From NCBI GenBank assembly GCA_964016885.1, contig OZ024741.1, positions 192,138,001-192,202,000 of the forward strand: DNA of 64,000 nt, read 5' to 3'. Source of the DNA: Eledone cirrhosa. Its lineage: Eukaryota. The translations under genes were made by a program, and so were the position numbers. Below are positions 13,543 to 47,481 of this stretch, one piece after another; positions within the stretch are counted from its first letter, which is position 1, and every line of letters begins with the position of its first letter. The notes beneath the pieces were generated by a model, which saw nothing but the letters and a program-made list of their open reading frames with translations, made no database searches and had not been told where the DNA came from.

Positions 13543-13958
13543 TGTATATATATATATATATATATATATATATATATATATGTGTGTGTGTGTGTGTGTA
13601 TAATATATATATTATACACACACACACACACACATATATATATATAACCTTCCCGCTTAAATATAAATGCATAGCTATATACATACGTAAATGTATGTAT
13701 GTATGTAGATTTATATATATATGTATGTATGTATGTATGTATGTATGTATGTATGTATGTAGATTTATATATATATATACATGTATGTATGTAAATTTAT
13801 ATATATATATGTATGTAGATTTATATATATATATATGTATGTATGTAGATTTATATATATAAATGAAGTAATTCCGTCGGAAAAGTCCAGGAAAAAAGAG
13901 TGCTCTATGTAGGTAACAGAGCTTAATAGTTATATAATAAACAACATAAGGCAATTAT

Positions 13959-14017
13959 TTCATTTACCAGTGGTTTCTTAAAAGCAAAAAAATGTTGTTT
14001 TCAATCATCAGAATGAA
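13959..14017 (-). ncRNA. Type I hammerhead ribozyme (mirror copy)
   Basis: UUCAUU-CUGAUGA-stem II-GAAA-CC-ACU-GG-UA-AAUGAA on the minus strand. Confidence 0.8.
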
Positions 14018-14077
14018 AAAATCCTGGTGTATTTATTGGCATTGGATTTTAAATGCCAATAAATACACCAGGATTTT

Positions 14078-14136
14078 TTCATTCTGATGATTGAAAGCAA
14101 CATTTTTTTGCTTTTAAGAAACCACTGGTAAATGAA
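14078..14136 (+). ncRNA. Type I hammerhead ribozyme
   Basis: UUCAUU / CUGAUGA / UUGAAAGCAA..UUGCUUUUAA / GAAA / CC-ACU-GG / UA / AAUGAA. All core nucleotides and three helices are present. Confidence 0.85.
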
Positions 14137-14189
14137 ATAATTGCCTTATGTTGTTTATTACATAACGATTTATATATATATATATATAT

Positions 14190-15203
14190 GGTAAATTTCT
14201 TTAAGTCGTTTGGCAGCCTCGACAATGCAGATGGGTAAATCTCCGGGTAACAAGATCCGGTGGTGGAGAGAGAGATGTAAGTGGGTGTACGTTGAGATGC
14301 GTGGCGTGTAGAAGACTGTAGCGTGTAGAAGAATGTAGGAAAGAGTGTAAAGGATAAAAATAAAAATAATAACACGAGATAGAGTTACCTTGGGAGAGAT
14401 TTAATTGTCCCTATATATTTCGGAGAGAAGCGAAATGAGGTGGTTGGTTTAAGTAAACAAACGATGCAGCAACACACGCACACACACACACAAGCGAGAC
14501 AGCAACACACGCGCACACACACACAAGCGAGACAGCAACACACGCGCACACACACACACACACACACACACACACACACACACACACACACACACAGTAG
14601 CATTCTACCATACGAACATACTACACTGCCAATACAGAGGAACAAGGCAACAACACACGCACACACACTCAAGCGAGACAACAACACATACACACACACA
14701 CAGTAACATTCACCAAACAGGCAGAGAATACTATGGACTGACAGCTAGCGGCACCCCACTCCCACAATTGAAAAAACTATTTCGGCCGCCAACCTCTGCT
14801 TGACCGACCCCATTTCACGCGCACACGCGCTCTGATGAATACCTCAGATATTCAAAACAACAAACAGCGGAGGACACGTTTCGCACCTTTCCGACAGACC
14901 CCCCCCCCGGAAAAAACCCCAGTTGATGGATGTGAATCCGAAATATATAGGGACAATTAAATCTCTCCCAAGGTAACTCTATCTCGTGTTATTATTTTTA
15001 TTTTACGCTCTTTCCCACATTCTTCTACACGCTACAGTCTTCTACACGCCACGCATCTCATCGTACACCCACTTACATCTCTCTCTCCACCACCGGATCT
15101 TGTTACCCGGAGATTTACCCATCTGCATTGTCGAGGCTTCCAAACGACTTAAAGAAATTTACCTTATTATTCCACAATGCTTCAAGCAAACTTCAATACT
15201 CTC
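14190..15203. mobile_element. Inverted pair of pseudo-LTR tails (arms 14190-14424 and 14937-15163) with decayed hammerhead at 14917-14952
   Basis: ~230-bp inverted repeat flanked by (TA)n; CCC-CAGTTGA-TGGAT-GTGA-ATCC-GAAA-TATA-TA-GGG. Confidence 0.7.
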
Positions 15204-15221
15204 TTATATATATATATATAC

Positions 15222-45335: not shown

Positions 45336-45344
45336 ATATATATA

Positions 45345-46250
45345 CAGTGATATCTTGCAGTACAAGTTTAATTCGTTCCATGACCGAGCTCGGTTTACAA
45401 ATCAATTTTCCTCATTGAAATTAATTCAAATATAATTAATCCGTTCCAGTCCCCCCAATCATTTTTTATGGGTTTTAAAACAGAAAAGATGTAGTAACAA
45501 GGAAAATGACAATTATATAAACATAATAAAAGAGAATGCAAAAGAAATGTGTAAACTGCTTTTATTAATTTAATTACCTTAATGATGGGACAATTTGTGT
45601 GCGAGGACGATGATGGAGTGGGGTGGAGGAGGATTATTGTTTGGAAGGAGAATCTCCTTCCATTAAGACTTCAAGAAGAACAATTTCTGGGTTTTTCTCT
45701 CTCACTTAGCTTAATTTAGGGTTTTTGGACACTTTCTTCACTGTCCACACATTCAGATCGTTTCAATAGAAACATATCAAGAGAAGTCTGCTTTTTCCTG
45801 CCTTTCAAAATGTTATGAAAATGCACCATAGCAGTGTCATTAAATAAAGCAGCTGCACAACCTGTAGATACTTTTTCAGGATGATTTTTTTTCCACAAAT
45901 TCAGAAACATCCTGTCACTTGGTCAACACTGCCTTTATGTTACTCCTAGAGATTGCCTTCTCCGCTACAATGTCCTCCTCTGGGGAACCAATCTCTTCTA
46001 CTAATTATTATAAAATAAAAGCAAAAAACACACAAAACTAAAAAAAACTGGGAGAAACACAATAGGGATGCTGCCACAATGAGATAAACACGTGAGTGTG
46101 CAGTAGCTGTGCTTGTTGGGAGATTGTGTCTGAGCTCAGCACTTGTACTGTGGATTTCCACTTATACTACAAGACAAAAATTTGCATGAGCCTCGGCTCG
46201 TACAGCAAATTACTCGTACAATGGTGCACTCCTACTGTGAGGTTCTACTG
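45345..46250 (-). mobile_element. Tigger/pogo-like DNA transposon, internally deleted
   Basis: CAGT..ACTG termini next to TA; C-terminal HPEK..LFND..HF..ILKGRKKQTSLDMF. Confidence 0.75.
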
Positions 46251-46650
46251 TGTATATATATATATATATATATATGTGAATGTATGTATAGTATATTTGG
46301 CAATATACCGTATGTTTAATTAAAAACATTTTGAAGACCTTGCACTATCATTTTAAAGTAGTGACTATGTCACTTACTTCTTTTTTCGGCAAAGGAAGGG
46401 AGAGAAGCTGACAGATTCTGTTTCACACTGTTGGTGATCCTCAAAGAAAGGGGTTTTTCTGAGCCATGTAATATAATTGAATATAAAAGAGAGATAAACA
46501 CAGATATAAACATACATGTGTTCAAATTGTAAGGGACCAAGTTCGCTAGGGTGAAAAAAATACTAACTATAACAATATGGTTTGCCAGACTCAATTTAAA
46601 GTAATAAATCAAGAAAAAGAAAAACAAACTTATATTGGGCAACTGCCTGA

Positions 46651-46729
46651 ACACCCAGACAGCTTATGGTAGGCTGTTTCGCAATTTTTAGCGAAGGAAA
46701 TTACCAATTCTTTGCTCATTAGTGGGTGT
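46651..46729 (-). ncRNA. Hammerhead, core mutated (CUAAUGA)
   Basis: Mirror of 47213-47291 with intact GCAA/UUGC helix II. Confidence 0.7.
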
Positions 46730-47212
46730 AAAATTAGTAATCCCTCCACTTCTAAGTATCTCAGAAGACTGAATAGTGTGCGAATATAAAATAACGCACA
46801 TGGCATCAGAACCCAGCGTGTCTCATAAACATACGCTACTAAAAAAAAAAAATAGCAGCCATGTTTACATAACATTTAAAATAGCTCAACAAAGTTTGAA
46901 GGAACCGACTGTATCTCTCTTCAATTATATTACACTACAATTATATTACACGGCTCAGAAAAACCCCTTTCTTTGAGCTATTTAATTGTAAGAGACTATT
47001 TTGAGTTTCTAACTCAATATATACCTTTGATATAGTCGGCTCCTTCTAACTTTGTTGAGCTATTTTAAATGTCGTGTAAACTTGGCTGCTATTTTTTTTT
47101 TAGTAGCGTATGTTTATGAGACACGCTGGGTTCTGATGCCATGTGCCTTATTTTATATTTGCATACTATTCAATCTTCTGAGATACTTAGAAGTGGAGGG
47201 ATTACTAATTTT

Positions 47213-47291
47213 ACACCCACTGATGAGAAAAGAATTGGTAATTTCCTTCGCTAAAAATTGCGAAACAGCCTACCATAAGCTGTCTGGGTGT
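47213..47291 (+). ncRNA. Full type I hammerhead ribozyme (GUC site)
   Basis: ACACCCA / CUGAUGA / GAAA..UUGC / GAAA / CAGC-CUACCAUAA-GCUG / UC / UGGGUGU. Confidence 0.85.
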
Positions 47292-47481
47292 TCCGGCAGT
47301 TGCCCAATATAGGTTTGTATTCCTTTTCTTGATTTATTATTTTAAATTGAGTCTGGCAAACCATATTGTTATAGTTAGTACTTTTTTGACCCTAGCGAAC
47401 TTGGTCCCTTTCAATTTGAACACATGTATGTTTATATCTGTGTTTATCTCTCTTTTATATTCAATTATATATATCATAATC

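What the first reader, a model, noticed from the sequence alone, without database searches (positions are those of the whole stretch)
13935..47472. Recurrent ribozyme-anchored fold-back palindromes at (TA)n microsatellites, from at least seven unrelated families
Seen: inverted repeats at 13935-14160, 14190-15163, 19414-19550, 19607-19723, 22966-23112, 29617-29919, 31012-31351, 31423-31540 and 46471-47470 differ in sequence but share one design. The arms begin at or just 5' of a hammerhead motif and run outward through a pseudo-LTR tail toward TA-rich flanks. Established: Penelope-like elements carry type I hammerheads and can insert with inverted 5' copies. Inference: very short head-to-head cDNA pairs or snap-back products are a dominant insertion product here. 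They would create bidirectional ribozyme cassettes, dsRNA hairpins and cruciform-prone sites.
Basis: partly seen in the sequence, partly recalled or inferred. Interest (0 to 1): 0.72.

Follow-up and report, generated by a model that had tools for sequence, protein, structure and literature searches.

The report
Head-to-head Penelope retroelement stubs
These palindromes are back-to-back pairs of short, cut-down copies of Penelope-like jumping genes lodged in TA repeats, some carrying predicted self-cutting RNA motifs; this pattern is already known for such elements, and each pair likely records two separate copying starts.

Summary
All nine inverted repeats exist. They belong to 8 mutually unrelated, multi-copy families and sit in or beside TA-rich DNA, long (TA)n for most.

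Genomic copies of the three best-sampled families (13925, 29617, 31012) are not MITEs:
- the outer (3') end is constant;
- the inner end varies from locus to locus;
- solo copies extend further 5';
- exactly one outer end per pair carries a family-specific 37-90-nt "tail" (32 of 32 pairs).

Three families run upstream into RT + GIY-YIG ORFs, so they are Penelope-like elements (PLEs).

A purpose-built descriptor finds complete type I hammerhead-like motifs in the arms of only 3 of the 8 families, at 6 sites against 0.3 expected. Rfam misses them. Families without a hammerhead make the same fold-backs, so the ribozyme is cargo near the 3' end and not the anchor.

The architecture matches published PLE biology: inverted 5'-truncated copies, a one-sided tail, (TA)n targeting, both DNA strands cleaved and extended, and two RT start sites. 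Two families (three of the palindromes) occur mainly as a single hairpin-plus-tail form.

"Ribozyme-anchored" and "snap-back" are not. Effects on dsRNA or cruciforms are untested. The scan has reported this class before on other DNA of this genome. Verdict: a known kind, with new families.

The parts
13862..13924 (-). One-sided tail of the 13925-family insertion. It starts with a GCUCU...AGAGC hairpin.
   Evidence: The same ~62-nt sequence follows the arm end on exactly one side in 9 of 9 pairs. Tail sequence.
13925..14170 (.). Head-to-head pair of 5'-truncated PLE-type copies (arms 13925-14043 on -, 14052-14170 on +). Each arm holds a type I hammerhead-like motif, at about 14072-14143 (+) and 13952-14023 (-).
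   Evidence: The family has at least 1167 candidates.
14190..15205 (.). Short inverted copy (14190-14358, -) joined to a longer copy of a PLE 3' UTR (about 14359-15163, +), plus a tail (15164-15205, +).
   Evidence: Long copies L136 and L137 run upstream into a GIY-YIG ORF of 27.0 bits. The family has at least 3802 candidates.
19340..19550 (-). Hairpin-plus-tail unit. Tail 19340-19413, arms 19414-19482 and 19488-19550. No hammerhead.
   Evidence: 12 of 13 other copies share the same centre. Variant forms.
19607..19803 (+). Hairpin (19607-19723) plus tail (19724-19803) unit. No hammerhead. Same family as 31423.
   Evidence: The family has at least 1130 candidates.
22046..22084 (-). Solo minimal hammerhead core (CUGAUGA A GGGC UUAU GCCC GAAACGUA). 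Helix I was not found. It lies near a PLE-type 3' end plus tail.
   Evidence: related to the 32145 site.
22962..23118 (.). Old, interrupted fold-back of a diverged family. It has a CUGAUGA box in the loop only and no complete hammerhead.
   Evidence: 70 candidates, 69-83 % identity.
29617..30005 (.). Head-to-head pair (arms 29617-29764 on -, 29772-29919 on +) plus a one-sided tail (29920-30005, +). Hammerhead-like motifs lie at about 29813-29876 (+) and 29665-29718 (-). The family is the 3' end of a PLE with Hydra-type EN features.
31012..31388 (.). Head-to-head pair. The - copy spans 31012-31206 and is the longer. The + copy spans 31207-31351. The tail spans 31352-31388 (+). No hammerhead. 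The family is the 3' end of a PLE with RT, a CX4CxxC linker and GIY-YIG.
31423..31620 (+). Second copy of the 19607-family hairpin-plus-tail unit.
   Evidence: 95.6 % identical to the 19607 copy.
32141..32176 (+). Solo minimal PLE-type hammerhead (UCUU CUGAUGA A GGAC UAGC GUCC GAAA CG UU^ AAGA), 32 nt from a fixed 3' end, followed by a tail.
   Evidence: It meets the literature min-HHR criteria (PMC4209133, passages read). Rfam gave no hit.
40892..40958 (-). Solo hammerhead-like motif with the same layout as the 29617 family but a different helix II. It is followed by an arm end and a tail carrying an ACUC...GAGU hairpin.
46471..47470 (.). Head-to-head pair of ~500-nt units. The right unit holds a hammerhead with a full helix III (47212-47293, +). 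The left mirror has CUAAUGA in place of CUGAUGA.
   Evidence: at least 3546 candidates, with partial tandems and inverted partners; RAGATH-1 hammerhead model, 19.4 bits, E = 0.32, below gathering score.

Best explanation
The nine palindromes are head-to-head pairs of short 5'-truncated copies of the 3' ends of eight Penelope-like retroelement (PLE) families inserted at TA-rich sites, and each pair was likely made by reverse transcription primed from both cut DNA ends.

Shown directly:
- In the three best-sampled families (13925, 29617, 31012) the outer end of each arm is a fixed element 3' terminus.
- In those families the inner end differs from locus to locus.
- Solo copies extend further 5'. 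In three families they run into RT + GIY-YIG ORFs.
- One outer end per pair, and only one, carries a family-specific tail.

Inferred, from the published in vitro behaviour of a Poseidon PLE:
- The element's endonuclease cuts both strands of the TA-rich target.
- Each 3'-OH primes cDNA synthesis on element RNA. One starts at the distal start site and copies the tail. The other starts at the proximal start site and yields no tail.
- Both cDNAs stop early and are joined at the centre.

The hammerheads lie 30-260 nt from the 3' end in three families. They are carried along whenever a stub is long enough, and they do not set the fold-back centre.

Two families (19414 and 19607/31423) likely propagate their fold-back plus tail as a heritable ~200-nt non-autonomous unit.
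For: 1. Architecture of the 13925 family (12 loci other than the window): 8 pairs and 4 solo or complex copies. The 3' end is constant, the centres vary, and one tail is present in 9 of 9 pairs (window included).
2. The 31012 family (13 other loci): 6 pairs and 7 solos. The shorter arm starts at query position 34, 41, 43, 71, 75 or 111. One tail in 7 of 7 pairs (window included).
3. The 29617 family, sampled from its 3'-terminal 64 nt: 25 distinct insertions, of which 11 are pairs and 14 are solos (10 of these extend 420 nt or more 5').
4. One tail in 16 of 16 pairs of the 29617 family. Two tails are variants that I judged by eye. Among solos, 4 of 19 carry a tail.
5. ORF links:
   - L069 has RVT_1 (33.3 bits) and GIY-YIG (30.3 bits) with a CDRPNCGIC linker, upstream of a 31012-family end.
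   - L137 has GIY-YIG at 27.0 bits upstream of a 14186-family end.
   - L129 and L132 have a CxCX5C linker and a core without CxxC, joined to the 29617-family end by collinear blocks in 4 loci.
6. Hammerheads: 6 descriptor sites against 0.3 +/- 0.6 in shuffles. Helix II differs completely between the related 29617 and 40950 motifs while the core and helices I and III are kept.
7. Literature:
   - PLEs show 5' truncation, an adjacent inverted 5'-truncated copy, a tail at one end, and (TA)n preference (PMC8557442, passages and section 11 read).
   - PLE protein cleaves and extends both strands, RT starts at two internal sites, the tail is the sequence between them, and hammerhead cleavage is not needed (PMC11167929, abstract and main text read).
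8. The arms differ by 1-6 %, and the same families occur at many loci with different flanks.
Against: - No PLE ORF was linked to the 13925, 19414, 19607, 22966 or 46471 families. Two upstream loci of the 13925 family showed only low-complexity ORFs.
- tblastn with the L069 protein found nothing in 10 upstream loci. The other ORF links rest on motifs and on Pfam.
- The GIY-YIG match for the 29617-family ORF is below Pfam's cutoff (16.3 against 22.6 bits).
- Rfam supports none of the hammerheads at gathering score, and self-cleavage is untested.
- In vitro the two start sites were used alike on both strands (PMC11167929). The strict one-tail rule seen here is therefore not explained by that work.
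- Most locus samples came from best-scoring hits and are biased toward long arms.
- Independent reads could not bridge the locus.
Confidence: 0.85

Rival explanations
1. The palindromes are MITEs: non-autonomous DNA transposons with terminal inverted repeats that insert at TA (Tc1/mariner-like) and move by cut-and-paste.
For: They are short palindromic units flanked by TA. They score against MITE-derived miRNA hairpin models such as mir-548. The 19414 and 19607 families show a mostly constant hairpin.
Against: - Inner ends vary between loci, and single arms and 5'-longer solo copies exist.
- A tail on one side makes the units asymmetric.
- Three families continue upstream into RT + GIY-YIG ORFs.
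- Tail-only 5'-truncated fragments occur.
- No transposase was linked to any family.
Confidence: 0.03
2. Each palindrome is a snap-back product. A single cDNA folds back on itself at its 3' end and copies itself, giving the second arm.
For: Loops are small: 7-8 nt in the 13925 and 29617 palindromes. Preferred centres lie near short AT-rich near-palindromic motifs. Retroviral-type RTs are known to do this (recalled).
Against: - The tail-less arm stops at the same fixed position that ends most solo copies, as expected for an RT start site and not for a run-off copy.
- The tail-bearing arm is the longer one in only 3 of 7 pairs of the 31012 family and 5 of 12 of the 29617 family. Simple snap-back predicts that it is always at least as long.
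- Some inverted partners consist of a piece of tail only (L033, L080).
- Both target strands are extended in vitro (PMC11167929).
Confidence: 0.08
3. For the 19414 and 19607/31423 families only: the hairpin is not copied from a palindromic master. It is re-made at every insertion, with one very strong turnaround hotspot.
For: Incidental copies include hairpins with other centres, tail-less hairpins and tail-only fragments. L046 joins a 42-nt inverted arm directly to the last 42 nt of the tail.
Against: - 12 of 13 copies of the 19414 family share one centre.
- 40 of 40 scored copies of the 19607 family hold the full hairpin, although both samples are the best-scoring hits.
- Some copies look truncated from the outer end of the left arm (query 40-197, 16-197, 13-194), as expected for 5' truncation of a palindromic template.
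- No copy was seen to extend 5' beyond the centre, but this was not searched for specifically.
Confidence: 0.35
4. The palindromes are assembly or library fold-back artefacts.
For: Palindromes are a known failure mode of some long-read libraries (recalled). Contigs from three runs of one sample could not bridge the 29617 locus, so there is no independent confirmation of this particular locus.
Against: - The arms differ by 1-6 %, whereas an artefact would give identical arms.
- The same families form pairs with different centres and unique flanks at dozens of loci on many contigs.
- One-sided tails are systematic (32 of 32 pairs).
Confidence: 0.01

Closest known systems
Insertion architecture of endonuclease-bearing Penelope-like elements (Craig et al. 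2021, PMC8557442; passages and section 11 read)
   Same: Heavy 5' truncation; an inverted 5'-truncated copy joined head-to-head; partial tandems; an extra tail at one end only; (TA)n targets; RT followed by a C-terminal GIY-YIG EN with a Zn-finger-like linker.
   Different: Here most products are stubs of 60-200 nt per arm with no ORF. The tails are 37-90 nt against the 30-40 bp reported. Two families occur mostly as one hairpin-plus-tail form.
Two internal RT start sites and two-strand cleavage and extension of Poseidon PAc from Anolis (Frangieh et al. 2024, PMC11167929; abstract and main text read)
   Same: There are two alternative fixed 3' ends per family, and the tail is the sequence between them. 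A stem-loop lies at the initiation region. The targets are AT-rich. The hammerhead is dispensable for insertion.
   Different: In vitro no difference in start site was seen between the strands. In this genome every pair examined (32 of 32) has one end of each kind. The families here are other clades (Hydra-type and CX4CxxC-linker type by motifs).
[quoted passage not shown]
   Same: CUGAUGA...GAAA core; a long helix II; a short helix I; helix III reduced to one pair with a palindromic loop. The 32145 and 22077 sites also have the unpaired base after A9 and the G10.1-C11.1 pair.
   Different: The motifs in the 13925 and 29617 arms have U-A or G.U at 10.1-11.1. The 46471 motif has a 5-bp helix III and a 35-nt helix II. 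None reaches an Rfam gathering score. Activity is untested.
Animal non-LTR retrozymes (bioRxiv 10.64898/2026.07.22.740005; abstract only)
   Same: Non-coding, hammerhead-bearing, PLE-related repeats. The ~500-nt family at 46471 occurs with partial tandem copies elsewhere.
   Different: In this window the units are single and inverted, not tandem arrays. No circular RNA evidence was sought or seen.
MITEs (Stowaway or Tc1/mariner-type)
   Same: Short, AT-rich, palindromic, next to TA, high copy number.
   Different: Variable centres, solo arms, one-sided tails, and continuity with RT + EN ORFs.

Membership tests
EN+ Penelope-like element insertions | Element encodes RT followed by a GIY-YIG endonuclease | tested here: met
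   Met for three families: 31012 (L069: RVT_1 33.3 bits, GIY-YIG 30.3 bits), 14186 (L137: GIY-YIG 27.0 bits) and 29617 (L129/L132: motif match, Pfam only 16.3 bits). No ORF was linked for the other five families.
EN+ Penelope-like element insertions | Constant 3' end with variable 5' truncation | tested here: met
EN+ Penelope-like element insertions | Inverted 5'-truncated copy joined head-to-head, and partial tandems | tested here: met
   Inverted copies. Partial tandems and as a second GIY-YIG ORF in L069.
EN+ Penelope-like element insertions | Tail extension at only one end of the insertion | tested here: met
   32 of 32 pairs: 9 in the 13925 family, 7 in the 31012 family and 16 in the 29617 family. 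Two tails are variants judged by eye.
EN+ Penelope-like element insertions | Insertion into (TA)n or AT-rich targets | tested here: met
   Flanks in the window. In the genomic copies printed, nearly every outer end abuts (TA)n or AT-rich DNA, directly or after the tail.
Hydra-clade PLE (for the 29617 family) | CxCX5C linker, and no CCHH (no CxxC inside the GIY-YIG core) | tested here: met
   P0001 reads KCNCRNKTDCP ... LVYKCTV...YNYIGST. The criteria come from PMC8557442, section 11.
Hydra-clade PLE (for the 29617 family) | RT motifs (RWK, DKT) and phylogenetic placement | not tested
   The RT part of these copies is fragmentary. No reference set or tree was made.
Neptune/Nematis-type PLE (for the 31012 family) | [quoted passage not shown] | tested here: met
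   CDRPNCGIC and LIYVLTCSGCREQYIGQT. The clade was not placed by phylogeny.
Type I / minimal hammerhead ribozyme | Catalytic core CUGANGA ... GAAA, with helices I and II and a U-H cleavage site | tested here: met
   6 sites against 0.3 +/- 0.6 in shuffles, plus 32145(+) with a 4-bp helix I. Met for 3 of the 8 palindrome families only.
Type I / minimal hammerhead ribozyme | G10.1-C11.1 pair and an unpaired base after A9 (PLE min-HHR traits) | tested here: inconclusive
   Present at 32145 and 22077. Absent in the 13925 arms (U-A) and the 29617 arms (G.U).
Type I / minimal hammerhead ribozyme | Match to a curated Rfam hammerhead model at gathering score | tested here: not met
   No match. The best is RAGATH-1 hammerhead at 19.4 bits against 56.3 at 47191-47289.
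Type I / minimal hammerhead ribozyme | Self-cleavage | not testable with these tools
   Needs in vitro transcription of monomeric and dimeric constructs.
MITE | Fixed unit bounded by terminal inverted repeats and a target-site duplication, with no RT-encoding parent | tested here: not met
   Variable centres, solo arms, one-sided tails and RT + EN parents.
Non-LTR retrozyme | Tandem arrays of hammerhead-bearing monomers | tested here: inconclusive
   There are no tandem arrays in this window. The 46471 family shows partial same-strand copies next to full units elsewhere.

The most novel reading that the evidence does not exclude
PLE integration in vivo is obligatorily asymmetric. Each double-ended insertion uses the two RT start sites exactly once each, one per DNA end. 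This implies a coordinated two-enzyme (dimer) complex reading one RNA from two start sites that flank a conserved RCUC...GAGY tail hairpin. Fold-back products with a tail can themselves become heritable hairpin retroelements (the 19414 and 19607 families).
Probability: 0.35. Interest if true: 0.6.

Novelty: new member of a known kind. Interest (0 to 1): 0.3.

Why it matters
The finding itself is ordinary. It shows that a large share of the small palindromes in TA repeats of this 3-Gb animal genome are stub insertions of Penelope-like elements and not MITEs, which matters for repeat annotation.

What may interest specialists is the set of regularities:
- One tail per pair in 32 of 32 pairs, against 4 of 19 solos. 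If the two ends chose a start site independently, at most half of the pairs would carry exactly one tail.
- Arm lengths are independent of the tail side.
- A small hairpin motif is shared by the tails of otherwise unrelated families.

These regularities constrain how PLEs use their two reverse-transcription start sites. That step was outlined in vitro only in 2024 and is not yet understood in vivo.

Tried and rejected
- Rfam at gathering score on the whole window, at E <= 10 on 13000-48500, and on three short stretches. No hammerhead reached threshold. I first read this as 'no ribozymes', and dropped that reading after the descriptor scan.
- I held the MITE reading until genomic copies showed variable centres.
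- A 62-nt 3'-terminal query of the 13925 family returned nothing (the tool skips very common words). No unbiased sample exists for that family.
- tblastn of the L069 RT-EN protein against 10 upstream loci gave no hits.
- The hammerhead descriptor on the 8.7-kb PLE locus L069 gave no site.
- Sequencing runs: X16-X18 are one sample, held as Logan contigs of 60-150 nt. They were laid on 29610-30400 and no contig bridged the palindrome or its flanks. This says nothing for or against the locus.
- I tested whether the tail side predicts the longer arm. It does not (3 of 7 and 5 of 12).
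Full report
OBSERVATION

All nine inverted repeats are real. One search lists the six long arm pairs, 119 to 236 nt long and 94 to 99 % complementary. The three short hairpins and the interrupted one at 22966 were read directly. Most abut long (TA)n, directly or after a tail; 22966 and 46471 have only short TA-rich flanks. An all-against-all blastn of the sense-oriented arms found only one palindrome pair to be related: 19607 and 31423, at 95.6 % identity. 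That gives 8 families for 9 palindromes. If transcribed, the 29617 palindrome would fold into one long duplex of -211 kcal/mol, z-score -33.9.

HAMMERHEADS

Rfam found none at gathering score in the whole window, and none at E <= 10 in 13000-48500. However, CTGATGA occurs 22 times in the window against 7.4 +/- 2.6 expected.

I wrote a descriptor that requires helix I, CUGANGA, helix II, GAAA, U16.1-H17 and the return strand of helix I. It found 6 sites against 0.3 +/- 0.6 (max 2) in 40 shuffles. The sites are:
- both arms of the 13925 palindrome;
- both arms of the 29617 palindrome;
- the right arm of the 46471 palindrome, whose left mirror reads CUAAUGA;
- a solo site at 40950(-).

Two more solo sites, 32145(+) and 22077(-), have the textbook minimal PLE core: an unpaired base after A9, G10.1-C11.1 and a palindromic ACGU. 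These criteria come from PMC4209133 (passages read).

On short input, Rfam's best hit at 47191-47289 is the RAGATH-1 hammerhead model at 19.4 bits, E = 0.32, far below its gathering score. Its alignment follows the same helices. Nothing was found for the minimal motifs.

The arms of 14186, 19414, 19607/31423, 22966 and 31012 hold no complete motif. So the shared ribozyme design holds for 3 of 8 families. Cleavage activity is untested.

WHAT THE PALINDROMES ARE

The window lies in a 3.0-Gb genome. Every family is multi-copy. The first-look candidate counts, which are lower bounds, are:

| Family | Candidates |
|---|---|
| 13925 | 1167 |
| 14186 | 3802 |
| 19414 | 227 |
| 19607 | 1130 |
| 22966 | 70 |
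| 29617 | 1336 |
| 31012 | 215 |
| 46471 | 3546 |

In the 13925, 29617 and 31012 families the loci show four features:
- a constant outer (3') end;
- inner ends that differ from locus to locus;
- solo copies that extend further 5';
- a family-specific extra "tail" beyond the arm end, on one side only.

I also took a sample of the 29617 family anchored on its 3'-terminal 64 nt, which should not favour long arms. It gave 25 distinct insertions other than the window's own: 11 head-to-head pairs and 14 solos, of which 10 extend 420 nt or more 5'.

The hammerhead in this family occupies about -102 to -50 from the 3' end. Of the 22 arms in those pairs:
- 5 end inside or 3' of the hammerhead;
- 11 end at -149 to -163;
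- 3 end at -110 to -134;
- 3 end at -223 to -348.

The hammerhead-less 31012 family also has a preferred end for the longer arm, about -181 to -195. So centres are not random, but the hotspots do not depend on a ribozyme.

LINK TO PENELOPE-LIKE ELEMENTS

- **31012 family.** Solo copy L052, extended as L069, has an RT (RVT_1, 33.3 bits) followed by GIY-YIG (30.3 bits). It carries a CDRPNCGIC linker and cysteines inside the core. A second GIY-YIG ORF lies upstream, which indicates a partial tandem. The reading frame has two stops. No hammerhead was found in its 8.7 kb.
- **14186 family.** Long copies L136 and L137 run into RT-like sequence and a GIY-YIG ORF of 27.0 bits.
- **29617 family.** Four loci share collinear blocks running from an EN ORF to the family's 3' end. 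That ORF has a CxCX5C linker and no CxxC in the core. These are the Hydra-clade traits given in PMC8557442, section 11. The Pfam match is below cutoff at 16.3 bits.
- No ORF was linked to the other five families.

THE TAIL RULE

Exactly one outer end carries the tail in every pair examined:
- 9 of 9 pairs in the 13925 family;
- 7 of 7 pairs in the 31012 family;
- 16 of 16 pairs in the 29617 family. Two of these are variant tails that my strict matcher missed and that I judged by eye.

Among solos of the 29617 family, 4 of 19 carry a tail. If the two ends chose a start site independently, at most half of the pairs would carry exactly one tail.

The tail sits on the longer arm in 3 of 7 pairs of the 31012 family and in 5 of 12 of the 29617 family. 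Arm length and tail side are therefore unrelated. Some apparent solos begin with an inverted piece of tail only (L033, L080).

Five of nine tails in the window start with an RCUC...GAGY hairpin. Shuffled tails give 0.05 on average, with 0 of 2000 shuffles reaching 5. None of 6 control arm ends has it. I defined this pattern after seeing four of the tails, so the test is partly post hoc.

MECHANISM

Frangieh et al. 2024 (PMC11167929, abstract and main text read) report the following for a purified Poseidon PLE protein:
- it cleaves and extends both DNA strands;
- it starts reverse transcription at two internal sites, and the genomic tail is the sequence between them;
- initiation lies in a stem-loop;
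- it does not need hammerhead cleavage.

Craig et al. 2021 (PMC8557442) describe inverted 5'-truncated copies, a one-sided tail and (TA)n targeting.

The simplest reading is therefore two target-primed cDNAs, one per DNA end, joined at the centre. A snap-back origin fits less well. The tail-less arm ends at the same fixed point as in solo copies, and the tail-bearing arm is often the shorter one.

The published in vitro work saw no difference in start site between strands, so the strict one-tail rule remains unexplained.

THE TWO HAIRPIN-PLUS-TAIL FAMILIES

For 19414, 12 of 13 other copies share one centre. For 19607/31423, 40 of 40 scored copies hold the full 211-nt unit. Both samples are best-scoring hits.

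Incidental copies were found in 114 loci (420 kb) fetched for other reasons. Most are hairpin plus tail. There are also tail-only fragments, tail-less hairpins, other centres, and copies truncated from the outer end of the left arm. I read these as fold-backs that likely became heritable non-autonomous units. Re-formation at each insertion with a strong hotspot is not excluded.

ARTEFACT QUESTION

Contigs of three runs from one sample were too short to bridge the locus, so that test was uninformative. The evidence against an artefact is internal:
- the arms are 1-6 % diverged;
- there are many independent loci;
- the tails are systematic.

EARLIER SCAN NOTES

One search shows that this class has been reported before on other DNA of the same genome: PLE stubs, Hydra-clade links, tail hairpins and two fixed ends per pair. 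I treated these notes as leads and re-tested them here on this window's families.

VERDICT

This is a known kind of element with new families. The ribozyme-anchor and snap-back parts are not supported. Functional consequences are untested.

Noticed in passing
window 26055-28940 (+) and 33260-36689 (+): Gypsy-type LTR retrotransposon pol ORFs. The first is an open 961-aa frame with RVT_1, RNase H, the integrase Zn-binding domain and rve. The second is split into several frames.
   Followed up: partly
window 12310-12744 (-) and 9469-10695 (-): A weak hAT dimerisation-domain remnant (18.3 bits) and a weak RVT_1 match (17.7 bits). Both are below Pfam cutoffs.
   Followed up: no
window 59392-60366 (+): A 324-aa open frame with three STPR repeats (PF21107, 60.4 bits). 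This may be a host gene exon or a TE-borne DNA-binding domain.
   Followed up: no
window 31621-31665; L076 about 1650-1850: A ~45-nt fragment follows the tail of the 31423 unit. It resembles the 3' end of a ~190-nt SINE-like insertion that interrupts a 29617-family copy in L076, just 5' of its hammerhead.
   Followed up: no
tails at window 13862-13924 (-), 19340-19413 (-), 19724-19803 (+), 29920-30005 (+), 40785-40853 (-): Tails of otherwise unalignable families begin with a small RCUC(U)-loop-(A)GAGY hairpin 2-10 nt after the arm end. The closing pair is G-C in two families and A-U in three. It may be the RT initiation stem-loop.
   Followed up: partly
L019 about 1250-1500 (upstream of the 29617-family copy): Another hammerhead family with CUGACGA, a 10-bp helix II that keeps the same C-C mismatch as the 29617 motif, and the same helix I and III layout.
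   Followed up: no
114 fetched loci, 420 kb in all: About 30 insertions of the 19607 family and about 20 of the 19414 family turned up by chance in loci fetched for other families. This suggests very high density around (TA)n tracts.
   Followed up: partly
window 14460-14700: A long (CA)n / CACGC-rich microsatellite lies inside the 3' UTR copy of the 14186-family element.
   Followed up: no
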